This document shows, piece after piece, positions 8,505 to 63,390 of a stretch of 64,000 nt of DNA. Source of the DNA: Nanobdellota archaeon (GTDB taxonomy: Archaea > Nanobdellota > Nanobdellia > Woesearchaeales > GCA-2686295); NCBI GenBank assembly GCA_018817005.1, contig JAHIUF010000018.1, forward strand, positions 4,964-68,963, read 5' to 3'. Under the pieces are notes generated by a model. That model saw only the letters and a list, made by a program, of their open reading frames with translations. It was not told where the DNA came from and ran no database searches. Made by a program: the position numbers and the translations under genes. Each line of letters opens with the position of its first letter. Positions within the stretch are counted from its first letter, which is position 1.

Positions 8505-10682
8505 TTATAGTTTCTTCATCTTCAAAAGCAAAGAATTACTCACAACACTAACAGAACTCATTGCCATGGCAACTCCTGCAATCATAGGATTTAATAGCCA
8601 GCCCATAAAAGGATATAATAAGCCTGCAGCCACAGGAATTCCTAGACTATTATAAAATAAAGCCCAAAACATGTTTTGTTTTATTTTGTTCATCGTGATT
8701 TTGCTTAATTTTATAGTTTTGACCACATCCATGATATCATTTTTCATCAAAATCACATCTCCTGTTTCCATAGCCACATCAGTTCCTGAACCCATAACTA
8801 TTCCCACATCTGCTTGAGCTAATGCTGGTGCATCATTAATCCCATCACCAACCATTGCAACAAATCCTTTCTTTTGCAGTTTCTTCACATAATTTACTTT
8901 GTCTTCAGGCAATACTTCTGCAAAATAGTAATCTATTCCTGCTTGTTTTGCCATGAATTTGGCTGTTCGCTCATTATCTCCTGTAATCATATACACGCAT
9001 ATCTTTAATTTCTTTAATTGTTTAATTGCCTCAAATGAACTATCTTTTATGGTGTCTGCAACAGCCATTAGACCTATTAGTTTTTTTGATTCCGCAAGCA
9101 ACATCACAGTTTTTCCTTGCTCTTCAAACTCAATTATTTCAGACTTATACATATTAAAACTAATGTTGTTATCATTCATTAATTTTTGATTCCCAAAAAA
9201 ATATTTTTTATTTTCAATGCTTGCAGTTATTCCATGTCCCGGAATTGATTTGAAATCTTTCACTTTTTTAAGAATAACTTTTTTTTCTTTTGCTTTTTTT
9301 ACTATTGCTTCAGCCAGAGGGTGTTCACTATTACTCTCAAGCGATCCTGCTAACGAAAGAATAGAATATTTGTTTTGTTTTTTCAAAGGAATTATGTCAG
9401 TTATCTCTGGTTTGCCTTTGGTTATAGTTCCAGTTTTGTCAAAAATAATATTTTTTATTTTGTGAGTGGACTCTAATGCTTCTCCTCCTTTTATTAATAT
9501 CCCGTTCTTTGCTCCTTTTCCAGTGCCAACCATTATAGCAGTTGGTGTTGCGAGACCAAGTGCACAAGGACATGCAATTACTAATACAGCAACACTCGCC
9601 ATTAATGCAAATTGAAACTCAGAGCCTATTATAAAAAACCAAGAAATAAATGTACTAAGTGCTATGATTAAAACAATTGGAACAAAGTATGCTGAAACAT
9701 AATCAGCGAATCTTTGTATTGGTGCTTTGTTTCCCTGAGCATTTTCAATGAGCTTTATTATTTGATAAAGTGTTGTGTTAGCACCTACTTTTGTGGCCTT
9801 GAAAATAAAACTTCCATGTTTGTTAATAGTAGCACCAATAACTAAATCACCTTTATTTTTTTCAACAGGAATACTTTCTCCTGTAATCAAACTTTCATCA
9901 ATAGATGAATAACCTTCAATAATAATTCCATCTACAGGAATTTTTTCTCCTGGTTTAACTATGATATTATCTCTGATTAAAACATCATCAACACCTATTT
10001 TTATTTCAATTCCATCTCTTATTACTGTTGCTAATTTAGGTTTTAATCCGATTAGTTTTTTTATTGCTTCACCAGTTTTTCCTTTTGCTTTTGATTCCAA
10101 TAATCTTCCAAATAAAACAATGGTAATTAAAACAGCACTCGCTTCAAAATATACATGCCCATAACCACTAAAAATAACATATACACTATGAAAATAAGCA
10201 GCCGAGGTTCCTAAAATAATAAGAGTGTCCATGTTAGCACTCTTACTTCTTAAAGAATTCAGTGCACTCTTATACATTGGCCATGCAATAACAAATTGCA
10301 CTGGTGTTGCAAGAACCCACATCAAAATATCTTGATATAATATTGGGTTTTTCATAAAAAACATTCCAAGAATGAAAACGGGGACTGCAAAAAAAAGACT
10401 GAAAAAGAATGATTTCTTAAGTTTCAAATATTCTTTTTTTTGCTTATTTTCATAAACACCAAACTCGTTTTCACTAGCAATTATTGCATTATATCCTTTG
10501 CCTATTATTGTGTTAATGAAAACTGTTTTGTTAGTTCTGCTTTCATCGTATTCAATAGTTACTTTATTAGTTGCTAAATTAACATTTGTACTTTTCACAC
10601 CGTCTAGTTTATTGAGAGATTTATTAATGAGAGTTGAGCAACTAGCACAATGCATTCCTGAAATTTGAATAATTGTTTTCAT
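8505..10682 (-). CDS. copA: Copper-translocating P1B-type ATPase
   Basis: N-terminal HMA domain GMHCASCS, membrane CPC motif (ACPCALG), [29 protein letters not shown]; start set at MKTIIQ so the ATG overlaps the mnmA stop (ATGA). Confidence 0.85.
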
Positions 10683-11731
10683 TTGATAATTCCTCCGCCA
10701 AGACAAACATTTTTTCTGTAAAACACGCAAAATTGTCCGGGTGTAACGCTATCTTGAAATGTGTTAAAAATAATTTTATATCCTGATTTTAAAGGAACAA
10801 GTTCGGCTTTACTCAATTTCTGAGCATACCTTGTTTTTGCTCTTACATCAAGTGTTTTTCTTGGATGCTTATTCGAAATAAAATTTATATTTCTCAAATA
10901 CACTTCTTTAGACCTAACATCAAGTCTGTTTTTAGTAACAATTAAATCATTTTTCTTTTTTTCCTTAACAAAATAAGTTTCTGATAAACCCAAACCTTTT
11001 CTTTGACCAATTGTAAAAAAATGAACCCCTTTATGTTCTCCAAGCAACTTTCCATTAACATCAAATATGTTTCCATTATTAATTCCTATTTCTTTTTCTA
11101 AAAATTTAGGCAAAGATTTATTTGAAATAAAACAAAAATTCTGGCTTTCTTTTTTCTTAAGAAAAATCTTAAAACCTTCTTTTTCGGCAATTTCAAAAAC
11201 TTCGCTTTTTAATAAATCATTCAAAGGAAAAATAATTTTTTTTAATTGGCTCTGTTTAAGAAAAGAAAGACCATAAGTTTGATCTTTATTCTTATCTTTT
11301 GGTCTTACAAGTTTAAATTCTCCACAGTCACTCTTTATTTTTTTAGCATAATGTCCGCTTGCAACATATTTTACACCTATTTTCTTTGCGTATTCTAGTA
11401 ATTTTGAAAATTTATGAAATCTATTACAAATAACACAAGGATTAGGAGTCCTTCCTTTTTTGAGCTCAGAAATGAAATACTCAATCACTTCTTTCTTAAA
11501 CTCCTTTCTAACATCATATACGTAATAAGGCACATTTAATTTTTTACAAACAGCCTTTGCCAAGTTCAAAGATTCTTTAGTACAACAAGCATTTTCACAT
11601 AATTGGTTAAACTTACTTCTCCAAACAGGAAGCTTTAAAGAAACACCCACAGGTTCGTAACCTTTTTTCTTTAATAAGATTAATGATACTGAAGAATCAA
11701 CTCCTCCTGACATACCCACAACGACTTTCAT
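10679..11731 (-). CDS. mnmA: tRNA-specific 2-thiouridylase MnmA
   Basis: PP-loop [15 protein letters not shown], 350 aa, conserved catalytic Cys region (NPCVICN). Confidence 0.85.
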
Positions 11732-26680: not shown

Positions 26681-27010
26681 ATGTTTTCAAGAAAAAAAGT
26701 TTATGGAGAATACAAAAAAGATATTTGTCCTTTTTGTGAAAAGCAAGCAACAAGCATTAATCAACAGGGTGTTCCTGTATGTCAACAGCACAAAACAGAA
26801 GAGCTTCCTCTTATGAAGTGTGTTTGTGGAGAAACTCTTGATTTAAAAACAGGCAAATTCGGTGCATATTTTCACTGCATGAACTGTGGAAACATTAGCT
26901 TTCACAAAGCAATGGATATAAATCCAAAAATAAACTTTGAAAGAAAAAAAGAAGCAACCCAAAAAAAAGAAATAACTGTCACTTCTGACGAAGCAGATTT
27001 CATATTTTAG
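26681..27010 (+). CDS. Zinc-ribbon protein with topoisomerase-type C4 zinc fingers
   Basis: CPFCEK...VCQQH and CVCGETLDLKTGKFGAYFHCMNCGN match the zf-C4_Topoisom pattern. Confidence 0.5.
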   Translation: MFSRKKVYGEYKKDICPFCEKQATSINQQGVPVCQQHKTEELPLMKCVCGETLDLKTGKFGAYFHCMNCGNISFHKAMDINPKINFERKKEATQKKEITVTSDEADFIF

Positions 27011-28959
27011 GATTTTGAAACATCAATTCTTTCTTTTAATTTTTTAACTCTATCTCGAAGTGCAATTGCTCTTTCGAATTCAAGTTTGTTTGCGGCTTTT
27101 TGCATTTCGAACTCTAATTCTATAATCAAATTCGGAACATCTTTTTTTGGAATGTGTTTTGCATCTGTTAGTTCAATTTCTTTTTCTTTAATAGGCTTTA
27201 TTATTGTTTTTGGTGTAATCTTATTTTTCTTATTATATTTCAACTGCAAATTTCTTCTTCTATTGGTTTCTAAAACTGCTTTTTTTATTGAATCAGTAAT
27301 TTTATCAGCGTATAAAACAACCTTTGAATTTATGTTTCTTGCAGCTCTGCCGATGATTTGTATAAGGCTTCTTGCGTCACGCAAAAATCCTTCTTTATCT
27401 GCGTCAAGTACTCCTATAAATCCTACTTCAGGAATGTCTAACCCTTCTCTTAAAAGATTAATCCCGACTAAGACGTCAAATTTTCCAAGCCTTAATTGTC
27501 TTATAATTTCTGTTCTTTCAAGTGTATCAATTTCAGAATGAAGATATCGAGTTTTTATTCCTGCTTCTGCAAAATATTCTGTTAATTCTTCAGCAAGTTT
27601 TTTTGTAAGTGTTGTTACAAGAACCCGGTCACCTCTGCTGATTGTTAATCGGATCTCTTCTTTTAAATCATTAATTTGTCCTTTAATTGGTTTTATCAAA
27701 ACCACTGGATCAACAAGACCTGTAGGTCTGATTATTTGTTCTACGATCTGTGATGAATGTGTTTCTTCATAAGGCCCTGGAGTTGCCGAAACAAACAACA
27801 CATTATTTTTTTTCATGAATTTTTCAAACTCTGAAAAGTCTAATGGTCGGTTATCAAATGCACTTGGAAGTCTGAAACCATAATCTATTAAATTTTTTTT
27901 TCTCGAATAATCACCCTTATACATTCCTCTTACTTGTGGTAATGTTTGGTGACTTTCATCAATAACAATCATAAAATCTTCTGGAAAATAATCAAGCAAA
28001 CAAAAAGGCCTCTCACCTTTTTTTCTTCCTTCAAAATACCTAGAATAATTTTCTATGCCTTTACAAAAACCTGTTTCTTCAATCATTTCCAAATCATAAA
28101 GAGTTCTTTGTTTTAATCGATGAGCCTCTAAAGGTTCTAATTCCAAAAGTCGCTCTTTAAGATCATCTTTTATTAAGTCTATTGAAGAACTTATTGTTTC
28201 CGGCGATATAACAAATTGTCTTGCGGGATAAACATGAAAATATTTCATATCTTCTAAAACATTACCAGATGTTTTTTCAATTTCAAGAATTTTTTCTACA
28301 ATATCACCAAATAATTCTATTCTTATGATGTTATCAAAATATCCTGGTATAAAATCAATTGTATCACCTTTAACCCTGAATCTTCCGGGCATAAGTTCTA
28401 AATCGTTTCTTTCAAACTGTAAATCAACAAGTTTTCTTATCAAGTCATTTCTTGAAAACTTTTTTTTAGAAACTATTTCAAATCCCATTTGTACAAAATT
28501 TTTTGGATCGCCAACACTGTAAATACAAGAAACTGAAGCTACAACTATCACATCTTTTCTTGATATAAGTGAGGCTGTTGCCGCAAGCCTCATCTGTTCG
28601 ATTTTTGGATTTACCTGGGCATCTTTTTCTATGTACTGATCTTTTTGTGGTATATATGATTCTGGCTGGTAATAATCATAGTATGAGACAAAATATTCAA
28701 CTCTATTTTTGGGAAAGAAATCTTTAAATTCGTTATAGAGTTGAGCAGCTAAAGTCTTGTTGTGTGCTAAAACAAGAGTTGGTTTTTGTATTTGAGATAT
28801 GATGTTTGCAACTGTAAATGTTTTTCCAGAACCCGTAACTCCCAGAAGCGTTTGGTAATTTAGTTTGTTCTTTAATCCTTTCATGAGTTTTTTTATTGCT
28901 TCTGGCTGTGAGCCTTTAGGCTTAAAGCTTGATTTGAGTTTAAATTCATTTAATGCCAT
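27007..28959 (-). CDS. uvrB: Excinuclease ABC subunit B
   Basis: 650 aa, LLGVTGSGKTFTVANII Walker A, helicase motifs, C-terminal UVR domain. Confidence 0.9.
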   Translation of the reverse strand: MALNEFKLKSSFKPKGSQPEAIKKLMKGLKNKLNYQTLLGVTGSGKTFTVANIISQIQKPTLVLAHNKTLAAQLYNEFKDFFPKNRVEYFVSYYDYYQPESYIPQKDQYIEKDAQVNPKIEQMRLAATASLISRKDVIVVASVSCIYSVGDPKNFVQMGFEIVSKKKFSRNDLIRKLVDLQFERNDLELMPGRFRVKGDTIDFIPGYFDNIIRIELFGDIVEKILEIEKTSGNVLEDMKYFHVYPARQFVISPETISSSIDLIKDDLKERLLELEPLEAHRLKQRTLYDLEMIEETGFCKGIENYSRYFEGRKKGERPFCLLDYFPEDFMIVIDESHQTLPQVRGMYKGDYSRKKNLIDYGFRLPSAFDNRPLDFSEFEKFMKKNNVLFVSATPGPYEETHSSQIVEQIIRPTGLVDPVVLIKPIKGQINDLKEEIRLTISRGDRVLVTTLTKKLAEELTEYFAEAGIKTRYLHSEIDTLERTEIIRQLRLGKFDVLVGINLLREGLDIPEVGFIGVLDADKEGFLRDARSLIQIIGRAARNINSKVVLYADKITDSIKKAVLETNRRRNLQLKYNKKNKITPKTIIKPIKEKEIELTDAKHIPKKDVPNLIIELEFEMQKAANKLEFERAIALRDRVKKLKERIDVSKS

Positions 28960-29042: not shown

Positions 29043-30608
29043 TTATTTCTGCAAAGTTTCTTTTCTTCTTAAAAGCCGGTTATAACTTATTGCAAACCTA
29101 TGAGCTTCGTCTCTAATTTCTCGCAAAAATAAAAGACCTTTATTTTTCTTTTCGAGCTTTATTGAAAATTTAAGACCTGGAACAAATATTTCTTCTTCTT
29201 TTTTAGCAATTGAAATAATTGGGATTTTCAAATTCAAATTTTTTAATTCTTCAAGAGCAAAACTCAGTTGTCCTTTTCCTCCGTCAACAACTATTAAGTT
29301 TGGAAGTGGTTTCTTCTCATCCAATAGTCTTTTATATCTTCTCATTACAACTTCTGATATTGCTTTAAAATCATCAATACCTTCAACAGTTCTTATTTTG
29401 TATCTGCGATAATTTTCTTTGTTAGGTTTGCCGTTTTGAAATTGAATCATTGATGCAACAGTTGAAGTTCCTGATATATGTGAAACATCAAAGCACTCTA
29501 TTACGAATGGTGTTTCTTGCAAGCGAAGTTTTGTTTTTAAAACACTTAATTTTTCTACTTCACCAAAAAATAATGCTTCAATATTTTTTAGAACTAGTTC
29601 AAGAAGCTTTTTTTTATCGCCCTTTTTTGGAACAACAACTAAAACTTTTTCTTTTCGTTGAAATTCTAGAAAAGATTTAAGCGAATTACTAATGTTCTTT
29701 GGTAAGATTATTTCTTTTGGAACCTTATTTTCAGAATAATATTGAGAAATAAATTGTTCAAAAAAATCGTTTTGTTCTTCAAATTCAAATTCCTGTTTAT
29801 TTTCAAGAAGACCTTTGTAAACATTAAAAAGCAAGAGATAAACTTTTCCTTGTGCTCGTTTATAATTTATTATATCTTGATTGTATTTTTTTTGCAGTTC
29901 CATGGTTTGTTTTTCTTTAAGCCAGATTAGTGATTGTATTTGATTTCTTAATTCGATTGCTAATTCAAAATCTTGTTTCTTAGAATAAAGTTCCATATTC
30001 TTTTGAAGTATTTTTAAAAGATCGTTTATTTTCCCTTTAAGAACCATTTTTGTAGCAGATATTTTTTTAGCGTATTCCTTTTTTGAAATATTTTTTATAC
30101 ATGGTGCTTCACAAAGTTTTATATGATATCGTAAACAGGATTTTTTAGAGATTTTTTTGCAGGTTCGAAGCTTAAAAGTTTTTATGAGTGTATGCATAAG
30201 ATAATCTCTTGTTCCTGCAGATGTGAATGGTCCGAAAAATTCTCCTGTACCAATTTTTTTTCTTACAATAAGAATTCTTGAAAAATCTTCTTTCGTAATG
30301 TGAATGTAAGCATATCTTTTTGAGTCTTTAAGTTGAATATTATATTTTGGCTGATACTTTTTTATCAGATTATTTTCCAGAATGAGTGCTTCCACTTCAT
30401 TATTTGTTATAAAAAATTCTATGAATTCAATCTTTGAAACAAGAGATTTTGTTTTTGAATCTAAAGACTTTTTTTGAAAATAACTACTAACTCTTTTTTT
30501 TAGATTATTTGCTTTACCAACATAGATTACTTTTTCTTTTTTGTTTTTGAAAAGATAACAACCGGGTTTGATAGGAATTTTGTTTGGGACATCTTTAAGT
30601 TTTATCAT
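29043..30608 (-). CDS. uvrC: Excinuclease ABC subunit C
   Basis: N-terminal GIY-YIG (PGCYLFKNKKEKVIYVGKANNLKKRVSSYF), 521 aa; overlaps the uvrA stop by 4 nt. Confidence 0.85.
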   Translation of the reverse strand: MIKLKDVPNKIPIKPGCYLFKNKKEKVIYVGKANNLKKRVSSYFQKKSLDSKTKSLVSKIEFIEFFITNNEVEALILENNLIKKYQPKYNIQLKDSKRYAYIHITKEDFSRILIVRKKIGTGEFFGPFTSAGTRDYLMHTLIKTFKLRTCKKISKKSCLRYHIKLCEAPCIKNISKKEYAKKISATKMVLKGKINDLLKILQKNMELYSKKQDFELAIELRNQIQSLIWLKEKQTMELQKKYNQDIINYKRAQGKVYLLLFNVYKGLLENKQEFEFEEQNDFFEQFISQYYSENKVPKEIILPKNISNSLKSFLEFQRKEKVLVVVPKKGDKKKLLELVLKNIEALFFGEVEKLSVLKTKLRLQETPFVIECFDVSHISGTSTVASMIQFQNGKPNKENYRRYKIRTVEGIDDFKAISEVVMRRYKRLLDEKKPLPNLIVVDGGKGQLSFALEELKNLNLKIPIISIAKKEEEIFVPGLKFSIKLEKKNKGLLFLREIRDEAHRFAISYNRLLRRKETLQK

Positions 30609-33406
30609 TTTAATATATTTCTTAAAAAAACTGCGGTGTGACTATTCTTGTTTATTGACACCTCTTCAGGTGTTCCTTTTGCAACAATAAAACCTCCATC
30701 ATCACCGCCATCTGGACCTAAATCTATTATGTAATCCGCAGATTTTATAACATCAAGATTATGTTCAATTACAATCATTGTGTTCCCCTTTGAAACTAGT
30801 TCATCTAAAACCAAGATTAGTTTTTTTACATCATGAAAATGAAGACCTGTTGTTGGTTCATCTAATAAATAAACTGTTTTTCCAGTTCCTTTTTTTGAAA
30901 GTTCTCTTGTAAGTTTAATTCTTTGTGCCTCTCCACCAGAAAGGGTTGTAGAGCTTTGACCAAGTTTGATATATCCTAGACCTACTTTTTTTAATGTTTC
31001 AAGTTTTGATTTTAATAGCGGTCTATTCTGAAAAAGTTCGTAAGCTTCATCTACAGTCATATTCAAAATATCTGCTATTGATTTACCTTTAAATCTCACT
31101 TCTAAAGTTTCACGATTGTATCTTTTGCCCCCACAATCTTCACATTCAACATATACATTTGGAAGAAAATTCATTTCTATCTTTATGACTCCATCACCTT
31201 GACAAATTTCGCATCTTCCACCTTTTACATTAAAAGAGAATCTTCCCGGTTTATAACCCCTTATTTTTGATTCTTTTAATTCTGAAAATAGTTTTCTTAT
31301 TTCATCAAAGATTTTTGTGTATGTTGCAGGGTTGCTTCTTGGAGTTTTACCTATGGGACTTTGATCTATTACTACTACTTTATCAATTTCTGATCCTAAT
31401 ATGATTTTATCATGTTCACCAACTCTTTTTTTTGAGTCATAAAGCTTTTTCATAAGGCCTTTATAGAGAATTTCATAAATCAAAGTTGATTTGCCGCTTC
31501 CTGAAACACCTGTTATGAGCGTTAAAATTCCTATTGGAATACTAACATCAATGTTTTTTAAGTTGTTCTGTCTACAACCTTTGATTTCAATAAAACTCTG
31601 AGCCTTTCTTCTAATGTTCGGAATGGAAATTTTCATTTTTTTGGAAAGATATTTTCCTGTCAGGGATTTTTCGTTTTTTGCAATTTCTTCAGGTGTGCCT
31701 TTGGCAATAATCCTTCCCCCTAAAAGACCTGCACCAGGACCCATATCTACAACGTAATCTGCTTTTCTTATTGTGTCTTCATCGTGTTCTACAACAATAA
31801 GAGTATTTCCAATATCTCGTAAGCGATGAAGTGTATCTATTAGTTTTTGATTATCTTTTTGATGAAGACCAATTGATGGTTCGTCAAGAATGTATATTAC
31901 ACCCATTAGATTGGAACCTATCTGTGTTGCAAGTCTAATTCTTTGGGCTTCTCCGCCAGAAAGCGTTCCTGAGTTTCTTGAGAGTGTTAAGTATGAAAGT
32001 CCTACTTCTGATAAAAATTTAAGTCGAGAATTTATTTCTTTTAAGATGTGTTTTGCAATCTCTTGTTCTTTTTCAGATAATTTTAAATCTTTAAAAAAAT
32101 CTAAAGTATCTTTTATGGAAAGGTCGGTTATATCAATTATTGATTTATCGTTTATTTTTACTGCTAAAACTTTTTCTTTAAGCCTTTTTCCCTTACAAGC
32201 AGGACAGGTAGATACTCTCATAAATTTTTCAAGTTCTCTTCTTCTATAATCTGATTCAGTTTGATGAAAAAGTCTTTCAGATTGAGGTACGAGACCTTCC
32301 CAACTACTGGTATGAGTCCAGTTAGCTTCACCTTGCTTCATCTTCATATTAAATTTTATTCGATCCTCAGATCCATACATCAAAATATTGTATTGTTCTT
32401 TTGATAAGTCTTTGATTGCTGTAAAAACTCCAAACCCATAATGTTTAGCAACTGAACCGATATATTGTCCTCGCCAACCATCAATTGCGTTTCTGTAAAG
32501 CATTATTGCACCATCTGCAATTGACTTATTCTTATCTGGTATTATCAAGTCAGGGTCAAAATCCATTTTTATACCAAGACCATGACATTCTTCACAAGCA
32601 CCAAACGGACTATTAAAAGAAAACATTCTTGGTTGCAATTCTTCAAATGCTAAGCCACATTTTGGACAAGCCATTTTTGAAGAGTATAATTGTTCTTTAT
32701 TTGATTCGTCAAGAACAATCAATAATCCTTTTGATTTTAACAGAGCATTTTCACAAGCCTCTACGAGTCTTTGAGTGTCTGTTATGTTAAGTCTATCTAT
32801 AACTATTTCAATATCATGTTTTTTGTATCTTTCAAGAAGTATTTTTTCATCAGTTCTTACAATTTGTTTATTTACTCTTGCTCTTGCATATCCTTCTTTG
32901 TTTAAATCCATTAACAGTTTTTCATATGTTCCTTTTTTTTGTCTGATTATTGGTGAAAGAACTATTATGTTACCGGAGAGTTCTTCTGCAATTTTCTGTG
33001 CAATTCTTTCTGAAGATTGAGCTTCTATTTTTATTCCGTGTTCCGGACAGTAAGGAATACCTATTCTTGCGAAAAGAAGCCTCAGATAATCATATATTTC
33101 AGTTATTGTTCCAACAGTACTTCGAGGATTCTTACTCGTAGTTTTTTGTTCGATTGATATTGCTGGCGATAAGCCTTCAATACTATCAACATCTGGTTTG
33201 TTCATTAACCCCAAAAATTGTCTTGCATAAGCTGAAAGTGATTCAACATATCTTCTTTGCCCTTCAGCATATAATGTGTCAAAAGCAAGGGTTGATTTTC
33301 CACTGCCTGAAAGACCAGTTATTACTATAAACTTATCCCTTGGAAGTGTTACATTAATGTTTTTTAGGTTGTGCTCACGAGCACCTTTAATTATTATGTC
33401 TTTCAT
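30605..33406 (-). CDS. uvrA: Excinuclease ABC subunit A
   Basis: 933 aa, two ABC modules ([20 protein letters not shown]), zinc fingers, LSGGEAQRI signatures. Confidence 0.9.
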
Positions 33407-33443: not shown

Positions 33444-34139
33444 TTATTTGTCTAAAGTTTTGGAGAATACCCTGTGAGCCTCTTCTTTTGTTATCTCTTT
33501 ATACTCACCAACTCTCAAACCATTTATTGATAATTCTCCAATCTTTGTTCTTTCAAGAGTTTTTATTCTATAACCAAGCTGTTTTAACATTCGCCTAACA
33601 ATGCGATTTTTTCCTTCATGAATTTCTATTTCTACCAAATTCTCTTTTATCTTGTGAGCTTTTGCTGGTGAAGTTATGCCGTCTTCGAGTTTTATTCCAG
33701 TCTCAATTTTTTTCAAGTCTTCTTCCAAAAATTTCTTGTCAACTTCTGCTCTATAGGTTTTGTTCACTTCATAACGTGGGTGCATCACTTTATTTGCAAA
33801 GTCTCCATCATTAGTCATTAAAAGAAGACCTGAAGTGTAATAATCAAGCCTCCCAACAGGAACGACCCGCTCTTTTATTTTAATATAGTCCATTACTGTT
33901 TTATAATGCGCATCCATTAAGGCAGTCACACATTTTACTGGCTTGTGAAATAAAAGATATAGAGTCTTTGGTTTTTTTAAGATTTCTCCTTCAACTTTTA
34001 TTTCATCCTTTTCCGAAGCCTTATCGCCGATAGATATTTTTTTACCATTAACAAAAACTTTTCCCTGATTTATTAATTCTTCAGCTTTTCTTCTGGAACA
34101 ATATCCAAAGTTAGCAATAATTTTTTGAACCCTCTCCAT
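33444..34139 (-). CDS. rRNA pseudouridine synthase, RsuA/RluB family (S4 domain plus catalytic domain)
   Basis: S4 domain at N-terminus; catalytic Asp motif GRLDYYTSGLLLMTNDG. Confidence 0.7.
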   Translation of the reverse strand: MERVQKIIANFGYCSRRKAEELINQGKVFVNGKKISIGDKASEKDEIKVEGEILKKPKTLYLLFHKPVKCVTALMDAHYKTVMDYIKIKERVVPVGRLDYYTSGLLLMTNDGDFANKVMHPRYEVNKTYRAEVDKKFLEEDLKKIETGIKLEDGITSPAKAHKIKENLVEIEIHEGKNRIVRRMLKQLGYRIKTLERTKIGELSINGLRVGEYKEITKEEAHRVFSKTLDK

Positions 34140-34197
34140 AAATAAAAATATTGACGCTTAGAATTTAAAGTTAACTAAAAAAAAAGAGAAAAAAAAA

Positions 34198-36624
34198 TTA
34201 TTTTTCTATAGTCAAATCTTTTCCGAATTCCACTGTTTCTATTTTATGCATTGCTTTTAAGTCTTTTTCAAGCGACTTCAAACTTTTCGGGATACAAACT
34301 TTCTTCAAAGAATCCCTTAAACTTAAGCCAGCATCTTTTTTACACTTCCAAATCGCGCCATTCACATCAGATATTTCTTCTGTTGAAAGTGTTGGTTCAA
34401 AATTAAATTCTACCTCTGGAAATAGTTCTGAATGAATATCTTTTTCTCTCAAATCAAAATAAATCTTGTATGTGATGAAAGGCGTTATTGGAGCTAACAA
34501 TTTCAAAATTATTTCAAGGCAATAATTAAGTGTGAAAAGAGCCGCGTTTTGCTCTTCTTTTGAAAAAGAATTATCTTCATTGTAAGCCCTTGACTTAACA
34601 AGCTCCAAGTAATGAGATGCAAAGGTTTCCCAAATAAAATGTTTTATTTTTATTGCAGGATTATGAAAATCATAGTTTCCATATCTGTCTTCAGAATGCT
34701 TAATTAGTTTTGAAACTTCAGATATTATCCATTTATCAACTTCCATTAATTCATATTTTCCAGAAACCTCAGGAAACATGCTTATGAATCTTGAAACATT
34801 CCACAGTTTTGTAAGGGTTTTTCCAGCACCTTCAATCCTTTCAAATGAGCAGCGAAAATCTGTGCTTTCAAGGTTTCCCTCGATAGCACTCCAAAGTCTA
34901 AATGGTTCTGCACCGAATTGTTTTAAAACTTTTTGTGGGTCTATAATATTACCTTTACTTTTGCTCATTTTATGGCCGTTTTCATCAACAATATGATGAT
35001 TTATCCAAACATCCTTGAAAATGAGTTTATCAGTTAAGAGATAATCCTTTAAAATTGTGTAATAAAGCCAAGTTCTTACTATTTCTTTACCTTGAGGTCT
35101 TAAAGAACATGGACTTGCTCTCTTAAAAAAATCTTCGTCCCGACTATATTTTAAAATGTAAAGTGGAGATATTGATGAATCAAACCAAGTATCAAAAACT
35201 CTTTTTTCACTAACCCATTTGCTTTTAGGATAATCCTTTAGCAGACCAATTTTATTTTTATCTTTGTCATAAATAACAGACTCGCTTGGAGGGGCTTCTT
35301 TCCAAGGCTGATAATATTTTCCTTTTGGTGGAAGAGCAAAATAATTATTTTCAACATCATACCAAAGAGGTATTTCTGTCGCGTAAAATCGACTTCTCGA
35401 TATTGGCCAGTCAATGTTTACAGAGTTAATCCAATTCAAAAGTATTTGAAGACTTTTTGGAGAATACATGTTGAGTTTATGAGCAAGCCCCAACATTTTT
35501 TCTTTGAACTCGACTTGCTTCACATACCATTCTTTCATATTTATGAATTCAATAGGGTCTTTGCTTCGTTCACAAATAGGTGTTCTATGAGTAACTCTTT
35601 TTTGACCCACTAAAAGACCTTTTTTGTCAATTTCAGCAACAATTTTTCTTTGAGCATCCTTTGTCGAAAGTCCTTTTAAAAAACCAGCATTTTTATTCAT
35701 TGTTCCATCTTTGTTAATGGCTATTGTTGGCTCCAATCCTTGTTCTCTGAAGAATCTAATATCAGTCACATCTCCAAAAGAACACATCATCATAATTCCC
35801 GTTCCTTTATCCATTTCAGCTGACGGATGAGCCATTATTGGAACTTCTTTTTCATAAATAGGAGTTATCGCTGTTCGTCCATCAAGATGCTTATATCGTT
35901 CATCTTGAGGATTGAAAATTATTGCTCCACAAGCACATATAAGTTCTGGTCTCGTCGTTGCAATAATTAAGTCATCGCCTATTTCTTTAACTTTAAATTT
36001 TATATCGTTAAAAAAAGCCGGAAAATCTTCATAATCAATTTCTGCATCGGCAATAGTTGTTTGACATCCAGGACACCAGTTATTTGCCCGGTCATCCTCA
36101 TATATCAAACCTTTATTCCACATATCAATAAATGTTTCTTGAGTGAGTGAGCGATAAGATGGTGAATCAGTATAATAAATGTCTCCTGGTTCGTCTCCCA
36201 ATATCCATGAATTAAAGCTTATTCCTGATTCAAAAAAAGATTTTGTGGATGCAAGAGAACTATCTTCGAGTATTTTTTCACAATACTCGGTGGCTTTTTT
36301 TCTTGGAAGAGAAGCAAGTCTAACACCAAACTTTTTTTCTGCAGCCATCTCAATTGGAAGCCCATTTCTATCAAGTCCTAGTGGAAACAAAACATTATAT
36401 CCTTTCATACGCTTAAATCTTGCAAAAAAATCCATTAACACATATGTTGTTGCATGACCAATATGGACTGGCGTATTAACATAAGGTGGCGGTGTATCTA
36501 TCGAATAAACTGGTTTTTTATTTTTCTTATCAAAAGCATACGCTTTATCTTTTTTCCATTTTGTATAAATTTCTTTTTCAAAATCTTTAGTCCAGTGTTT
36601 TCCTTTTAGTTTCGGTTCAATCAT
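34198..36624 (-). CDS. valS: Valyl-tRNA synthetase (archaeal type)
   Basis: HIGH (PPPYVNTPVHIGHA), KMSKS (KMSKSKGN), editing domain; start set at MIEPKL (the ORF extension MVCVSFF... is hydrophobic and implausible); TTTATAAA box about 30 nt upstream. Confidence 0.8.
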   Translation of the reverse strand: MIEPKLKGKHWTKDFEKEIYTKWKKDKAYAFDKKNKKPVYSIDTPPPYVNTPVHIGHATTYVLMDFFARFKRMKGYNVLFPLGLDRNGLPIEMAAEKKFGVRLASLPRKKATEYCEKILEDSSLASTKSFFESGISFNSWILGDEPGDIYYTDSPSYRSLTQETFIDMWNKGLIYEDDRANNWCPGCQTTIADAEIDYEDFPAFFNDIKFKVKEIGDDLIIATTRPELICACGAIIFNPQDERYKHLDGRTAITPIYEKEVPIMAHPSAEMDKGTGIMMMCSFGDVTDIRFFREQGLEPTIAINKDGTMNKNAGFLKGLSTKDAQRKIVAEIDKKGLLVGQKRVTHRTPICERSKDPIEFINMKEWYVKQVEFKEKMLGLAHKLNMYSPKSLQILLNWINSVNIDWPISRSRFYATEIPLWYDVENNYFALPPKGKYYQPWKEAPPSESVIYDKDKNKIGLLKDYPKSKWVSEKRVFDTWFDSSISPLYILKYSRDEDFFKRASPCSLRPQGKEIVRTWLYYTILKDYLLTDKLIFKDVWINHHIVDENGHKMSKSKGNIIDPQKVLKQFGAEPFRLWSAIEGNLESTDFRCSFERIEGAGKTLTKLWNVSRFISMFPEVSGKYELMEVDKWIISEVSKLIKHSEDRYGNYDFHNPAIKIKHFIWETFASHYLELVKSRAYNEDNSFSKEEQNAALFTLNYCLEIILKLLAPITPFITYKIYFDLREKDIHSELFPEVEFNFEPTLSTEEISDVNGAIWKCKKDAGLSLRDSLKKVCIPKSLKSLEKDLKAMHKIETVEFGKDLTIEK

Positions 36625-36774
36625 GATGCTTCTTAGTATAAGGAGGTCATTTATAAAATTTATCCAATAGAAAAATATAAAAAAGGAAACACATACCATC
36701 AGATTAAAGAGGTGGGGCTGGAAGTCTCATAAAAAAAGATTTCTAAAAATAATTTTTTTAAGGGGGGTTTAAAA

Positions 36775-37815: not shown

Positions 37816-37866
37816 TCAAAATAAGAGGAAATATTTAAAAATAAACTTGATTCTCAATAGTTATAA

Positions 37867-38052
37867 GGACCTATAGCCTAGCCTGGCAACCTTTTGAGCA
37901 AGTCAAAAGCTTGACCAAAAATCGTCCGACATAAAGTCGAACAAGTTGGGCAAATAAGGCGACAGCCTTCTAAAGTCAAGGTTTCCTTGAACTTTTCAAG
38001 AGCTTTGACTGCTGATAGCTGTAGATCGGGGGTTCGAATCCCCCTAGGTCCA
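37867..38052 (+). tRNA. tRNA-Arg (anticodon TCT) with two introns (about 67 nt in the D-loop, about 44 nt at canonical 37/38)
   Basis: Acceptor GGACCTA/TAGGTCC, D-stem GCCT/AGGC (37957-37960), anticodon stem ACAGC/GCTGT, loop CTTCTAA, T-arm GGGGG-TTCGAAT-CCCCC, discriminator A; exons approx 37867-37889, 37957-37972, 38017-38052. Confidence 0.75.
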
Positions 38053-38121
38053 TATTTTCTTTTTTATAATAACAGCTCATCTAATCACAAATTATAATAA
38101 CTCCGTTATTCTCTTGTTATT

Positions 38122-38910
38122 GTGAAAAAACTCAGACTTCAACAATTCTTGAGCATGACAGGGGCTTTTTCCAGTAAAAGCGCTGTTTTGAAAGCAATTA
38201 AAGATGGTGATATAATAATTGATAATAAAATAATGAAAAATCCTAATTTTCAAATTGGAATTTCAAGATTTGTGTTATGGAATAAAACAAAGCTTTTTGC
38301 AATCCGAAAGAAAACTTATATTGTTTTGAATAAGCCAGCAGGATTTCTTTCTTCTAAACTCAGCAAGAATGATGAACTTCTGAGGAAAAAAAGTGTTTTT
38401 TCCTTGCTTAAAGGACTAGATGAACAAACAATTAACACTTTGTTTTGCGTTGGAAGACTGGATGAAGACACAACTGGTCTTTTAATAATAACAAATGATG
38501 GGGAATTATCACACAAAACAACGAATCCTTTGTTCTCTGTTCATAAAAAATATCTTGTAACACTTGAGCAGGATTTATCTTCTGAAGCAAAAAAGAGGCT
38601 AGAACAGGGAGTTATAATAATTTTAGAAGAGAATAACAAAAAAACTGCATACAAAACAAAACCTTGTACAATAAATTTCAAAGATCAAAGTCAAAAACAA
38701 CTCATAATCACGCTTGCTGAAGGTAAAAAGCGTGAAGTAAAAAGAATGATTGAGACTGTGAAAAATAAAGTTACTGCTTTAGAAAGGATATCTATTGGTT
38801 GCTTAGAACTTGATGAACTTGATATTCCAAAAGGACAATATAAGACTTTTGAAAAAGATTTCTTACTTAACAAAATAAACTGCGAAGAAAAATCATCTTG
38901 TAAGCATTGA
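38122..38910 (+). CDS. Pseudouridine synthase, RsuA family (second copy; GTG start)
   Basis: S4 domain, catalytic GRLDEDTTGLLIITNDG. Confidence 0.65.
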   Translation: MKKLRLQQFLSMTGAFSSKSAVLKAIKDGDIIIDNKIMKNPNFQIGISRFVLWNKTKLFAIRKKTYIVLNKPAGFLSSKLSKNDELLRKKSVFSLLKGLDEQTINTLFCVGRLDEDTTGLLIITNDGELSHKTTNPLFSVHKKYLVTLEQDLSSEAKKRLEQGVIIILEENNKKTAYKTKPCTINFKDQSQKQLIITLAEGKKREVKRMIETVKNKVTALERISIGCLELDELDIPKGQYKTFEKDFLLNKINCEEKSSCKH

Positions 38911-39151
38911 TATCTGCTTTGAGTATTTTAATATCCAAAAAATATCTGTTGCTTGCTTTACAGCTGTAAAATCTTTTTGTTTTTTTAAAACTTCAAAGAT
39001 GTTTTTGTATGTCGTTTTTATGTCTCGTTCTTCAGACCATAGAGATAGTGATTTTTCAGTAAATCTAAGAGGACATGGTTCACTTGTTCTTGCAGAAAAT
39101 ATTGAAAAATATATTATATGAACCAAGACCTATGCCTGAAATTGTAAAAGA

Positions 39152-39622
39152 TTATTTGGGAATGTAAAGTCCTTCTTTTGTTCTCCATTCATTTCTTATG
39201 TCTTGCCAGTGTTCTTTTGAATGGATTTTATAGAATAATTTTATTCCTGCACTTTTTATGCCTGTAGTGTTATAATATAAAACATCTCCTTTTGGATATT
39301 CACCTTTATTTATCGCTGCAAGAAAAATTTTTGTTTCTACATCATATTTTTCTTTCATATAATCAACAGTCCAAAAACCTTGTGAAGGTGTTTTTCTGGA
39401 CCAAAGTCCTCCCCAGTCTTTAGCATCTTTGACAACCCATTCATCTGGTAATTCATAGTATTCATTGAATGGGTATTTAAGGATGTAAGGATTATTTGCA
39501 AGTCCTAATGATTTCATATCTGTTGTTACAATCTTGAAACTCATGTTGTAAACTTTATCATCCAGCATTACTTCATAAATGGGCGGTAAAGGACATTTTC
39601 TTGGAAAATCGTGTCTTGGCAT
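39152..39622 (-). CDS. hypothetical protein
   Basis: 156-aa ORF, Trp/Tyr-rich. Confidence 0.4.
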   Translation of the reverse strand: MPRHDFPRKCPLPPIYEVMLDDKVYNMSFKIVTTDMKSLGLANNPYILKYPFNEYYELPDEWVVKDAKDWGGLWSRKTPSQGFWTVDYMKEKYDVETKIFLAAINKGEYPKGDVLYYNTTGIKSAGIKLFYKIHSKEHWQDIRNEWRTKEGLYIPK

Positions 39623-39702
39623 AATTTTAAGGAATTAAAAATTATTTATATACATATCCATAAGCTTTATATATGCTTGACGATTTTTTCAAAAAGAGTT
39701 TC

Positions 39703-39774
39703 GCAGGAGTGGCCAAACGGTAAGGTGAGCGCCTGCAGAGCGCTAGATTGGGGGTTCAAATCCCTCCTCCTGCT
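39703..39774 (+). tRNA. tRNA-Cys (anticodon GCA)
   Basis: Acceptor GCAGGAG/CTCCTGC, anticodon stem AGCGC/GCGCT with loop CTGCAGA, T-arm GGGGG-TTCAAAT-CCCTC, discriminator U73 (Cys identity element); short 3-bp D-stem. Confidence 0.8.
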
Positions 39775-39791
39775 TTGCAAAATTCTAAAAA

Positions 39792-40565
39792 ATGGCGAAA
39801 AAAATACTTATAAAAAAAGATAGGAGTGTGGATGTCAACGGTAGAAAAGTTCTTGTTTCAAAATTTGAAAAGCATTATGTTGATGATTCAAAAGATTTCA
39901 GCACAAAATACGGCATTATAAAAGAGTCTGATATTAAAAAAATTGCTGGAAGTGTTATCAAGACTAAAAACGAAGAGTTTATTATCTTAAATCCTGATTT
40001 CATAGATCACTATAAACAAATAAAACGCTTAGCTCAAATTATTACTCTTAAAGATATCGGCGCAATTATTGCAAATACCGGTCTTACAAAAGACTCGATA
40101 GTTCTTGAAGCTGGTAGCGGCTCTGGCGCTCTTGGCTGTTTCCTTGCAATGCTTTCTAAAAAAGTTATCAGCTATGACATTAAATCTGAACATTTAGAGG
40201 TTGCAAAAAAAAATGTTGAAATGCTTGGTATAAAAAATATTGAGATTAAGAAAGGAGACATTTATGATTTTGAAAAAATCAAAGAGAAAAACATAGATGT
40301 TTTTGTTTTAGATGTTCCAACACCTCACGATGGCATTAAAACTGCCAAAAAAGTTTTGAAGATTGGTGGTTTTTTGGTTTCTTACAGTCCAAACATAAAT
40401 CAAGTTCAAGAATTTGTCAAAAATTTAACCGAAGAATTTTTGTATGAAAAAACCATTGAAGTAATCGAACGTGAGTGGACGGTTAAAGAAAAAATTCTAA
40501 GACCTAAAATGAAAGATTTTGGTCACACAGCATTTTTGACTTTTGTTAGAAAAATTCAAAACTAA
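39792..40565 (+). CDS. trmI: tRNA (adenine57/58-N1)-methyltransferase TrmI
   Basis: SAM motif LEAGSGSGALG, C-terminal GHTAFLTFVRK typical of TrmI/Gcd14. Confidence 0.75.
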   Translation: MAKKILIKKDRSVDVNGRKVLVSKFEKHYVDDSKDFSTKYGIIKESDIKKIAGSVIKTKNEEFIILNPDFIDHYKQIKRLAQIITLKDIGAIIANTGLTKDSIVLEAGSGSGALGCFLAMLSKKVISYDIKSEHLEVAKKNVEMLGIKNIEIKKGDIYDFEKIKEKNIDVFVLDVPTPHDGIKTAKKVLKIGGFLVSYSPNINQVQEFVKNLTEEFLYEKTIEVIEREWTVKEKILRPKMKDFGHTAFLTFVRKIQN

Positions 40566-62997: not shown

Positions 62998-63125
62998 GCG
63001 CACCCCCAAAACAAATATATTTCAGAGAAGTTAATAAAAGTTTCGTTTTAAACCATTAAAAACCGAGACTTAAAGAGATATACAAGAGATAGATTTAAAA
63101 AGCAAAAAACTTTCTTCCAGATTGC

Positions 63126-63390
63126 TAGACTGGGTGGCTCGTCCTCACCTGTAACTGCAAACGGATGTACGGCAGGGTTGAAGCCTGAGGGGCGGCGTAA
63201 TTTTAGTTATAGGTCTTGGTTGGACCGTCGACGTCTTGTCCTTTAGGATCAGGATTTTTATGAACTGAGTCAGATCAGGAATGAAGCAGCTCTAAGTATT
63301 AATCGTGGTGTCTAAGGGGTTGCAGGATTGAGGAAAAATCAAGGTAGCCTTTGATTGGAGTTTTCGTCCACCTTCAGGCGTGCACTTTTA
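63126..63390 (+). ncRNA. Signal recognition particle RNA (7S/SRP RNA) candidate
   Basis: GC-rich island in AT-rich genome; helix-8-like GAGUCAGAUCA-GGAA-UGAAGCAGCUC (compare E. coli 4.5S GUCAGGUCCGGAAGGAAGCAGCC); 5'/3' regions complementary; TATA-like GATTTAAAAA about 30 nt upstream, T-run after. Confidence 0.55.

What the first reader, a model, noticed from the sequence alone, without database searches (positions are those of the whole stretch)
37867..38052. tRNA-Arg(TCT) interrupted by two introns, one at a non-canonical D-loop position
All four stems reconstruct perfectly only if two segments are spliced out: about 67 nt (37890-37956) inside the D-loop and about 44 nt (37973-38016) at the canonical 37/38 site, giving a 76-nt mature tRNA with anticodon loop CTTCTAA. 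Multi-intron tRNAs with non-canonical positions are an archaeal hallmark. Both introns carry similar AGTCAA...TTGAC hairpin motifs, hinting at a common origin.
Basis: seen in the sequence. Interest (0 to 1): 0.7.

Follow-up and report, generated by a model that had tools for sequence, protein, structure and literature searches.

The report
Two-intron archaeal tRNA-Arg(UCU) gene
This is a genuine arginine tRNA gene of a small DPANN archaeon, split by two short protein-spliced introns (one in the D-loop, one next to the anticodon); this gene layout is well known in archaea and is shared by many relatives.

Summary
The finding is real and mostly read correctly. Window 37867-38052 (+) encodes tRNA-Arg(UCU) split by two bulge-helix-bulge (BHB) introns. 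It has an upstream TATA box and a downstream T-tract. ARAGORN and Rfam miss it unspliced.

Two corrections:
- The mature tRNA is 75 nt, not 76.
- The D-loop intron is 37887-37953 (between G19 and A20), not 37890-37956. Only there does an hBHBh' motif form. The spliced product then matches intron-less tRNA-Arg genes of related genomes (...CCUGG|AUAAGGCG...).

The canonical intron (37973-38016, site 37/38) has correct BHB geometry, but only 2 of 4 central-helix pairs form.

Among 121 tRNA-Arg genes sharing the 5' exon (DPANN, Asgard and others), 32 carry an intron at the same D-loop site. Their BHB shows compensatory covariation. Several have the same two-intron layout or three introns. Two metagenome contigs carry a homologous D-loop intron without the canonical one.

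Multi-intron archaeal tRNAs, D-loop introns and frequent tRNA gene disruption in DPANN are all published. This is a new member of a known kind.

The proposed common origin of the two introns is weak on direct comparison (p about 0.035). A significant match between the D-loop intron and another genome's canonical intron hints at relatedness across sites. Splicing itself is inferred, not shown.

The parts
37835..37842 (+). TATA-box-like promoter element (TTTAAAAA), about 32 nt upstream of the tRNA 5' end
   Evidence: Read directly from the sequence. Homologous genes in L125, L126 and L127 carry TTTAAAA, TTTAAATA and TTTATAAA at the same distance. Promoter function is inferred.
37867..37886 (+). 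Exon 1: acceptor 5' strand, positions 8-9, D-stem 5' strand and D-loop up to G19 (GGACCUAUAGCCUAGCCUGG)
   Evidence: ARAGORN on the spliced product. The identical 20-mer begins intron-less tRNA-Arg genes such as L029.
37887..37953 (+). Intron 1, 67 nt, non-canonical, in the D-loop between G19 and A20. BHB elements: central helix H 37881-84/37948-51 (4/4 paired); 5' bulge 37885-87 (GG^C); 3' bulge 37952-54 (AA^A); h 37879-80/37955-56; h' 37888-90/37945-47. Internal hairpins at 37891-97/37903-09 and 37924-42.
   Evidence: BHB scans. The same site and motif occur in 32 relatives. Covariation supports the motif. Homologous introns are present in L125 and L126, and RNAalifold recovers H and both hairpins.
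37954..37972 (+). Exon 2: A20-U20a-A21, D-stem 3' strand, G26, anticodon-stem 5' strand, and anticodon loop through A37 (AUAAGGCGACAGCCUUCUA; anticodon UCU)
   Evidence: Contiguous with exon 1 and exon 3 in intron-less relatives.
37973..38016 (+). Intron 2, 44 nt, at the canonical 37/38 site. BHB elements: h 37962-66/38018-22 (5 bp, the anticodon stem); H 37967-70/38011-14 (C-G, U.U, U.C, C-G, so 2/4 paired); bulges 37971-73 (UA^A) and 38015-17 (AU^A); h' 37974-84/38000-10 (11 bp including G.U).
   Evidence: Top-scoring BHB candidate in the locus. Geometry shown. ARAGORN intron mode places a 44-nt intron here once intron 1 is removed.
38017..38052 (+). Exon 3: A38, anticodon-stem 3' strand, variable loop, T-arm (GGGGG UUCGAAU CCCCC), acceptor 3' strand and discriminator A. 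No CCA is encoded.
38055..38068 (+). T-rich tract (TTTTCTTTTTTATA), a likely transcription stop
   Evidence: Read from the sequence. T-rich tracts also follow the homologues L125 and L126. Terminator function is inferred.

Best explanation
The locus is a functional gene for tRNA-Arg(UCU) in a DPANN, Woesearchaeota-like archaeon.

Proposed pathway:
- A 186-nt precursor, plus leader and trailer, is transcribed from a TATA-box promoter.
- The archaeal tRNA-splicing endonuclease (EndA) recognises two bulge-helix-bulge motifs and cuts in each 3-nt bulge. One intron lies between G19 and A20 of the D-loop (67 nt, 37887-37953). The other lies at the canonical 37/38 site (44 nt, 37973-38016).
- An RtcB-type ligase joins the three exons into a 75-nt tRNA. 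CCA is added afterwards.

To present the D-loop BHB, the second GCCU of exon 1 (positions 15-17a) pairs with GGGC at the 3' end of the intron, and the D-stem pairs in a shifted register.

Shown here: the exon-intron anatomy, BHB geometry at both sites, conservation and covariation of the D-loop BHB, and identity of the spliced product to intron-less orthologues.

Inferred: transcription, cleavage by EndA, ligation, and that this is the cell's working AGA decoder.
For: - The spliced product is a perfect 75-nt tRNA-Arg(tct) cloverleaf.
- An hBHBh' forms at G19|A20, with H 4/4 paired, h 2 bp and h' 3 bp. A BHB also forms at 37/38, with h 5 bp and h' 11 bp.
- Intron-less relatives read CCTGG-ATAAGGCGACAGCCTTCTAAGCTGTAGATCG. 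L029 matches the spliced product at 73 of 75 positions.
- 32 of 121 related tRNA-Arg genes have an insertion at the same D-loop site, all with the BHB. Mean BHB score is 12.7, against 7.6 +/- 1.6 with shuffled introns.
- Covariation over 27 genes: 86.7% of pair cells form standard pairs. All four h' pairs show compensatory changes, and H shows C-G to U-A changes. The covariation score is 0.376, against 0.164 +/- 0.018 in shuffles (0 of 500 reach it). Slid-register controls reach at most 0.123.
- L125 and L126 carry homologous D-loop introns. RNAalifold independently recovers the central helix.
- The same two-intron layout occurs in L055, L073, L076, L030, L118 and L124.
- TATA-like and T-tract flanks are conserved in homologues.
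- AGA makes up 66% of Arg codons in 15 window ORFs, so a working tRNA-Arg(UCU) is needed.
- Published precedent: D-loop plus canonical double-intron tRNAs that are spliced in vivo, and elevated tRNA gene disruption in DPANN (PMC5829648, PMC4090602, PMC8450103).
Against: - There are no expression or splicing data.
- The central helix of the canonical-site BHB has only 2 of 4 pairs (U.U and U.C mismatches).
- Enforcing both BHBs costs about 15 kcal/mol relative to the MFE (-58.0 against -72.8). Each BHB alone costs about 7 kcal/mol. The free RNA is therefore predicted to prefer other pairings, such as hairpin CAACCUUUUGA/UCAAAAGCUUG and helix GCCUAGC/GUUGGGC.
- No EndA or RtcB was found among 20 size-appropriate ORFs of the window, so the machinery is not demonstrated for this genome.
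- It is unknown whether another, uninterrupted tRNA-Arg(UCU) gene exists elsewhere in the genome.
Confidence: 0.9

Rival explanations
1. The gene is as described, but the D-loop intron has the reader's borders (37890-37956, between 20a/21 and 22), giving the D-loop AGCCUGGCAA.
For: This splice also gives a perfect 75-nt cloverleaf that ARAGORN calls tRNA-Arg(tct).
Against: - No BHB forms at these borders: H is 1/4 paired.
- Nearly every intron-less relative reads GG-A(U/C)A-RGGC after G19; a few have a shorter or longer D-loop, and none reads GGCAA.
- In all 32 D-loop-interrupted relatives the best BHB puts the 3' cut immediately before AUARGG.
- From my own knowledge, not tested here: A20 is a major ArgRS identity element.
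Confidence: 0.04
2. The locus is a decaying tRNA pseudogene, or a tRNA gene disrupted by insertions that are not removed. The working tRNA-Arg(UCU) is encoded elsewhere.
For: - Standard detectors do not call the locus.
- The BHB conformers are not the predicted MFE.
- The central helix of the canonical BHB is weak.
- The rest of the genome is unseen.
Against: - All 21 stem pairs of the spliced cloverleaf are intact, and the exons match intact orthologues at 73 of 75 positions.
- The insertions sit exactly at sites flanked by BHB geometry, and one of these BHBs covaries across genomes.
- Promoter-like and terminator-like flanks are retained and conserved.
- A quarter of orthologous genes in other genomes have the same interruption, which is not expected for random decay.
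Confidence: 0.04
3. One or both introns also serve another purpose: they encode a stable small RNA (for example a C/D-box guide released on splicing), or they are recently mobile elements related to each other.
For: - Some relatives' canonical tRNA-Arg introns contain C-box-like and D-box-like motifs (L054, L015, L011).
- The 5' half of intron 1 matches the canonical intron of L084 at 25 of 30 positions, including an exact 14-mer. The maximum score is 31, against 20.6 +/- 2.3 in shuffles, with 0 of 300 shuffles reaching it.
- Intron 1 keeps two hairpins in L125 and L126, with covariation in the second.
Against: - Neither intron here has a C box. The only CTGA sits at the 3' end of intron 2.
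- Similarity between intron 1 and intron 2 is marginal, p about 0.035.
- The 14-mer does not recur elsewhere in the window.
- Hairpin palindromes inflate alignment significance.
- The conserved hairpins may simply scaffold the BHB.
Confidence: 0.15

Closest known systems
Multiple-intron archaeal tRNA genes with BHB introns at non-canonical positions (Thermoproteales, Thaumarchaeota and others; Sugahara 2007/2008, reviewed in PMC4090602 and PMC4033280; handled by tRNAscan-SE 2.0, PMC8450103)
   Same: - Short protein-spliced introns are bounded by BHB or relaxed BHB motifs.
- There is more than one intron per gene, here one canonical plus one non-canonical.
- Published non-canonical positions include 20/21 and 59/60.
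   Different: - The host is a low-GC DPANN archaeon, not a crenarchaeon or thaumarchaeon.
- The tRNAscan-SE intron models were trained on Crenarchaeota, Euryarchaeota and Thaumarchaeota introns only (PMC8450103).
Methanopyrus kandleri pre-tRNA-Glu(UUC), with a D-loop intron at 20b/21 plus a canonical intron (PMC5829648); also Aeropyrum pernix pre-tRNA-Thr with a D-loop intron (PMC3241643)
   Same: - The architecture is the same: a D-loop intron combined with a canonical intron in one gene.
- The mature tRNA was seen by RNA-seq in M. kandleri.
- In that case too, the D-loop intron disrupts D-arm folding in the precursor.
   Different: - The isoacceptor differs (Arg, not Glu or Thr) and the exact site differs (19/20, not 20b/21).
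- The D-loop motif here is a full hBHBh', whereas M. kandleri has a relaxed HBh'.
- Here the weaker motif is the canonical one.
DPANN tRNA gene disruption linked to EndA variants with broad specificity (ARMAN epsilon2 EndA, PMC3239211; L3-loop alpha4 EndAs in Woesearchaeota and Pacearchaeota, PMC5829648)
   Same: - The organism group is the same.
- The expectation is the same: non-canonical and relaxed BHB introns are tolerated.
   Different: The EndA type of this organism is unknown, because EndA is not in the window.
[quoted passage not shown]
   Same: Similar intron sequence occurs at different positions: our D-loop intron against the canonical intron of L084.
   Different: There is only one significant cross-site match, in a different genome. 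No set of near-identical introns within one genome has been shown.

Membership tests
tRNA (Arg, anticodon UCU) | Cloverleaf with a 7-bp acceptor stem, 4-bp D stem, 5-bp anticodon stem, 5-bp T stem, 7-nt anticodon loop with U33, G18G19 and a UUCRANY T-loop | tested here: met
   ARAGORN calls the spliced 75-mer tRNA-Arg(tct) with all stems perfect. The loop is CUUCUAA and the T-loop is UUCGAAU.
tRNA (Arg, anticodon UCU) | Orthology to recognised tRNA-Arg genes | tested here: met
   The 5' exon pattern retrieved only tRNA-Arg genes. The spliced product matches the intron-less L029 at 73 of 75 positions.
Archaeal BHB (EndA-spliced) tRNA intron, canonical 37/38 | Two 3-nt bulges separated by a 4-bp helix and flanked by helices h and h', with cleavage after the second bulge nucleotide giving 37|38 junctions | tested here: inconclusive
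   The geometry, both 3-nt bulges, h (5 bp) and h' (11 bp) are correct. The central helix has only 2 of 4 pairs, a relaxed form. It costs about 7.7 kcal/mol relative to the MFE.
Archaeal BHB (EndA-spliced) tRNA intron, non-canonical D-loop | An hBHBh' motif at the exon-intron junctions | tested here: met
   H is 4/4 paired, the bulges are GG^C and AA^A, h is 2 bp and h' is 3 bp at 37886|37887 and 37953|37954.
Archaeal BHB (EndA-spliced) tRNA intron, non-canonical D-loop | The motif is conserved and covaries in homologues | tested here: met
   All 32 relatives with an intron at this site have the motif. Covariation score is 0.376 against 0.164 +/- 0.018, with 0 of 500 shuffles reaching it, and the slid registers all score much lower, at most 0.123.
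Archaeal BHB (EndA-spliced) tRNA intron | A splicing endonuclease (EndA) and RtcB ligase are present in the genome | tested here: inconclusive
   Neither was found among the 30 window ORFs scanned with Pfam; the other ~28 of 58 ORFs were not scanned. The rest of the genome is not available.
Archaeal BHB (EndA-spliced) tRNA intron | The intron is actually excised and the exons ligated in vivo | not testable with these tools
   This needs tRNA sequencing, RT-PCR or an in-vitro EndA assay.
Intron-encoded C/D-box sRNA (as in euryarchaeal pre-tRNA-Trp) | C box (RUGAUGA) and D box (CUGA) near the intron ends | tested here: not met
   Neither intron has a C box. There is a single CTGA at the 3' end of intron 2.
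Self-splicing group I/II intron in a tRNA | A ribozyme core of a few hundred nucleotides | tested here: not met
   The introns are 67 and 44 nt long. Rfam gives no match, even at permissive thresholds.

The most novel reading that the evidence does not exclude
The G19|A20 intron of tRNA-Arg may be an old, widely inherited or repeatedly re-targeted intron family. It spans DPANN, Asgard and other archaea and was present in 32 of 121 sampled genes. BHB introns in DPANN may also move between sites: our D-loop intron shares a 25/30 segment, including an exact 14-mer, with the canonical intron of another genome's tRNA-Arg. If so, the intron-transposition dynamics described only for Thermoproteales would extend to DPANN. 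This gene would then be a snapshot of that process, with a conserved D-loop intron plus a lineage-specific canonical intron that is absent from its closest homologues L125 and L126.
Probability: 0.3. Interest if true: 0.45.

Novelty: new member of a known kind. Interest (0 to 1): 0.25.

Why it matters
- Annotation. Standard tRNA finders miss this gene. The genome would then appear to lack the decoder for AGA, which makes up 66% of Arg codons in the window. Recognising the two BHB introns restores a complete tRNA set.
- Survey. The comparison shows that the same D-loop site, plus 37/38 and 59/60, are intron hot spots in tRNA-Arg across many uncultured archaea. That is useful for training intron models for DPANN and Asgard genomes, which current tools were not trained on.
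- Concept. Nothing new is added to what is known about archaeal tRNA splicing.

Tried and rejected
- Synteny route: contigs encoding homologues of the downstream pseudouridine synthase (L001-L005) have no tRNA in the corresponding gap.
- An exact 3'-exon search of species-representative genomes gave 0 hits.
- A gapped pattern for near-identical two-intron genes in metagenomes gave 0 hits, not even the source contig.
- C/D-box sRNA in the introns: no C box.
- Nested intron within intron 1 (a 35-nt insert between hairpin 1 and GGGCAA): no BHB in any register.
- A repeated intron-derived element elsewhere in the window: the 14-mer GTCAAAAGCTTGAC occurs only once.
- Other hidden tRNAs in the window: a T-arm motif scan and a permissive Rfam scan found only tRNA-Cys. 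Genes with T-loop introns could still escape these scans.
- EndA or RtcB in the window: not found among 20 candidate ORFs.
- Common origin of the two introns from direct similarity: marginal, p about 0.035.

Full report
**1. What is at the coordinates**

The window is archaeal. It carries an Archaea_SRP RNA at 63118-63389 (119.5 bits) and has 30.5% G+C. The protein next to the locus is closest to Woesearchaeota and other DPANN proteins, and its nearest foreign relative is only 59% identical.

ARAGORN and Rfam find just one tRNA in the window, tRNA-Cys at 39703-39774. Neither calls anything at 37867-38052, even at permissive thresholds.

ARAGORN folds it as a perfect tRNA-Arg(tct). The 186-nt precursor is much more structured than shuffled versions (-72.8 kcal/mol, z = -6.3).

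**2. Exon-intron borders**

I scanned every pair of candidate cut sites for archaeal BHB geometry. On the 5' strand this is h, H (4 bp), a 3-nt bulge, then h'. On the 3' strand it is h', H, a 3-nt bulge, then h. The cut falls after the second bulge nucleotide.

The best candidate in the whole locus is the canonical intron:
- Exon 2 ends at A37 (37972) and the intron is 37973-38016 (44 nt).
- h is the 5-bp anticodon stem and h' is 11 bp. The bulges are UA^A and AU^A.
- The central helix has only its two outer C-G pairs (CUUC/GCUG).

Three nucleotides upstream there is a proper hBHBh':
- Exon 1 ends at G19 (37886) and the intron is 37887-37953 (still 67 nt).
- H is GCCU/GGGC (4/4 paired). The bulges are GG^C and AA^A.
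- h is A14-U and U13-A. h' is AAC/GUU.

The product is again a perfect 75-nt tRNA-Arg(tct), but its D-loop reads AGCCUGG-AUA.

**3. Relatives decide the border and show that the layout is common**

A 5'-exon pattern ending at G19 (GGACCNNTAGCCTAGYCTGG) hit more than 119 contigs of species-representative genomes. The hits are mostly Woesearchaeota and Nanoarchaeota, plus Iainarchaeota, Asgard archaea and others, and every hit is a tRNA-Arg gene.

Intron-less genes continue ...CCTGG ATAAGGCGACAGCCTTCTAAGCTGTAGATCG.... L029 matches my spliced product at 73 of 75 positions.

A spliced alignment of 121 genes gave these insertion counts:
- 32 insertions exactly after G19.
- About 34 insertions at 37-39.
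- 30 insertions at template position 61, which is T-loop site 59/60.

Several genes share our two-intron layout: L055 (79 + 45 nt), L073, L076, L030, L118 and L124. Others have three introns, for example L011, L014, L015, L020, L039, L084 and L115.

All 32 genes interrupted at the D-loop site form the same BHB. Their mean score is 12.7, against 7.6 +/- 1.6 when the introns are shuffled.

I tested covariation on a fixed-register alignment of 27 of these genes (A1):
- 86.7% of pair cells are standard pairs.
- All four h' pairs show compensatory double changes. The H pair C16-G becomes U16-A in four genes.
- The covariation score is 0.376, against 0.164 +/- 0.018 in shuffles (0 of 500 reach it). 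Slid registers score at most 0.123.

**4. Close homologues of the D-loop intron**

The first metagenome scan, aimed at near-identical genes, found nothing. The second found three contigs.

L125 (62-nt intron) and L126 (68-nt intron) carry an intron clearly homologous to ours. Its layout is CAACCUUUUG...CAAAAGCUUG, then ACCAAAA, then a second hairpin with different but complementary arms, then GUUGGG. RNAalifold on the three sequences recovers the D-stem, the BHB central helix and both hairpins.

Neither contig has a canonical intron. L126 has a 59/60 intron instead. Intron 1 is therefore shared within the lineage, while intron 2 looks lineage-specific.

All four genes have a TTTAWAWA box about 32 nt upstream, and a T-rich tract follows the window gene and L125 and L126.

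**5. Are the two introns related to each other?**

Directly, only weakly. The local score is 16, against 11.3 +/- 2.0 in shuffles, p about 0.035.

The 5' half of intron 1 does align at 25 of 30 positions with the canonical intron of L084, a groundwater Woesearchaeota MAG. The alignment includes the exact 14-mer GTCAAAAGCTTGAC. That 14-mer occurs nowhere else in the 127 fetched loci or in the window. The maximum score over introns at sites other than the D-loop is 31, against 20.6 +/- 2.3 in shuffles, with 0 of 300 shuffles reaching it.

Both segments are hairpins, which inflates this significance. I treat the match as suggestive of introns related across sites. Such relatedness has been described for Thermoproteales (Fujishima 2010, as summarised in PMC4090602).

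**6. Mechanism**

By analogy with the established pathway, EndA cuts in the four bulges and RtcB ligates the exons. This step is inferred, not shown. Four caveats apply:
- Forcing both BHBs costs about 15 kcal/mol relative to the MFE, roughly 7 kcal/mol each. Recognition therefore probably depends on a broad-specificity enzyme, as reported for DPANN EndAs with insert loops (PMC5829648, PMC3239211).
- Neither EndA nor RtcB is among the 30 window ORFs scanned.
- The introns have no C/D boxes, and there is no nested BHB in intron 1.
- AGA is 66% of Arg codons in 15 window ORFs, so the cell needs this tRNA species. I cannot exclude a second gene copy elsewhere in the genome.

**7. Comparison with what is known, and verdict**

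The following are all published:
- Non-canonical BHB introns, including positions 20/21 and 59/60 (PMC4090602).
- Up to three introns per archaeal tRNA gene (PMC8450103).
- D-loop plus canonical double-intron genes whose product is seen in vivo, such as M. kandleri tRNA-Glu (PMC5829648).
- Increased tRNA gene disruption in DPANN, including Woesearchaeota (PMC5829648).

This locus is a new member of that kind. Interest is modest. The value lies in annotation and in the side observation that G19|A20 is a recurrent, covarying intron site in tRNA-Arg across many uncultured archaea.

Noticed in passing
L006-L124 (tRNA-Arg genes from species-representative genomes): tRNA-Arg genes of DPANN, Asgard and other MAGs have three intron hot spots. 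Of 121 genes, 32 are interrupted at G19|A20, about 34 at 37/38 and 30 at T-loop 59/60. The T-loop introns usually end ...GAAAG^UCC. A few further introns lie in the anticodon stem (template positions 27-31).
   Followed up: partly
L084 1881-1894 (-) and window 37902-37915: The exact 14-mer GTCAAAAGCTTGAC, within a 25/30 alignment, is shared between our D-loop intron and the canonical intron of a three-intron tRNA-Arg in a groundwater Woesearchaeota MAG. It occurs nowhere else in the 127 loci or in the window. This may be a trace of intron relatedness across sites.
   Followed up: partly
L054, L015 and L011 (canonical-site introns of tRNA-Arg(CCT), 63-78 nt): These longer canonical introns contain C-box-like (GATGATGA, TGTGATGAG, TTGATGAC) and D-box-like (CTGA) motifs. 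They may be intron-encoded C/D-box guide RNAs in tRNA-Arg. Our introns have nothing comparable.
   Followed up: no
window 39703-39774 and L127 611-682: tRNA-Cys(GCA) lies 1.65 kb downstream of the tRNA-Arg gene in the window. In L127 it lies only about 60 nt downstream of a D-loop-interrupted tRNA-Arg. This may be a remnant of an Arg-Cys tRNA gene pair.
   Followed up: no
window 10679-11731, 33444-36699 and 38122-40565: The neighbourhood is rich in tRNA and rRNA maturation genes. There are two S4-domain pseudouridine synthase paralogues (33444-34139 on the minus strand, 38122-38910 on the plus strand), a class I aminoacyl-tRNA synthetase (34198-36699), a GCD14/TrmI-like m1A58 methyltransferase (39792-40565) and an MnmA-like tRNA 2-thiouridylase (10679-11731).
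   Followed up: no
window 29043-33406: Bacterial-type nucleotide-excision-repair genes are present in this DPANN archaeon: UvrC (29043-30608) and UvrA (30605-33406). The adjacent 650-aa ORF at 27007-28959 was not examined.
   Followed up: no
window 63118-63389: Archaeal SRP RNA (Rfam RF01857, 119.5 bits), which fixes the domain of the organism.
   Followed up: yes
window 38084-38110 and L001 3965-3990: The motif AAATTATAATAACTC upstream of the pseudouridine-synthase gene is conserved between the window and a contig whose orthologue is only 48% identical. It is probably that gene's promoter.
   Followed up: no
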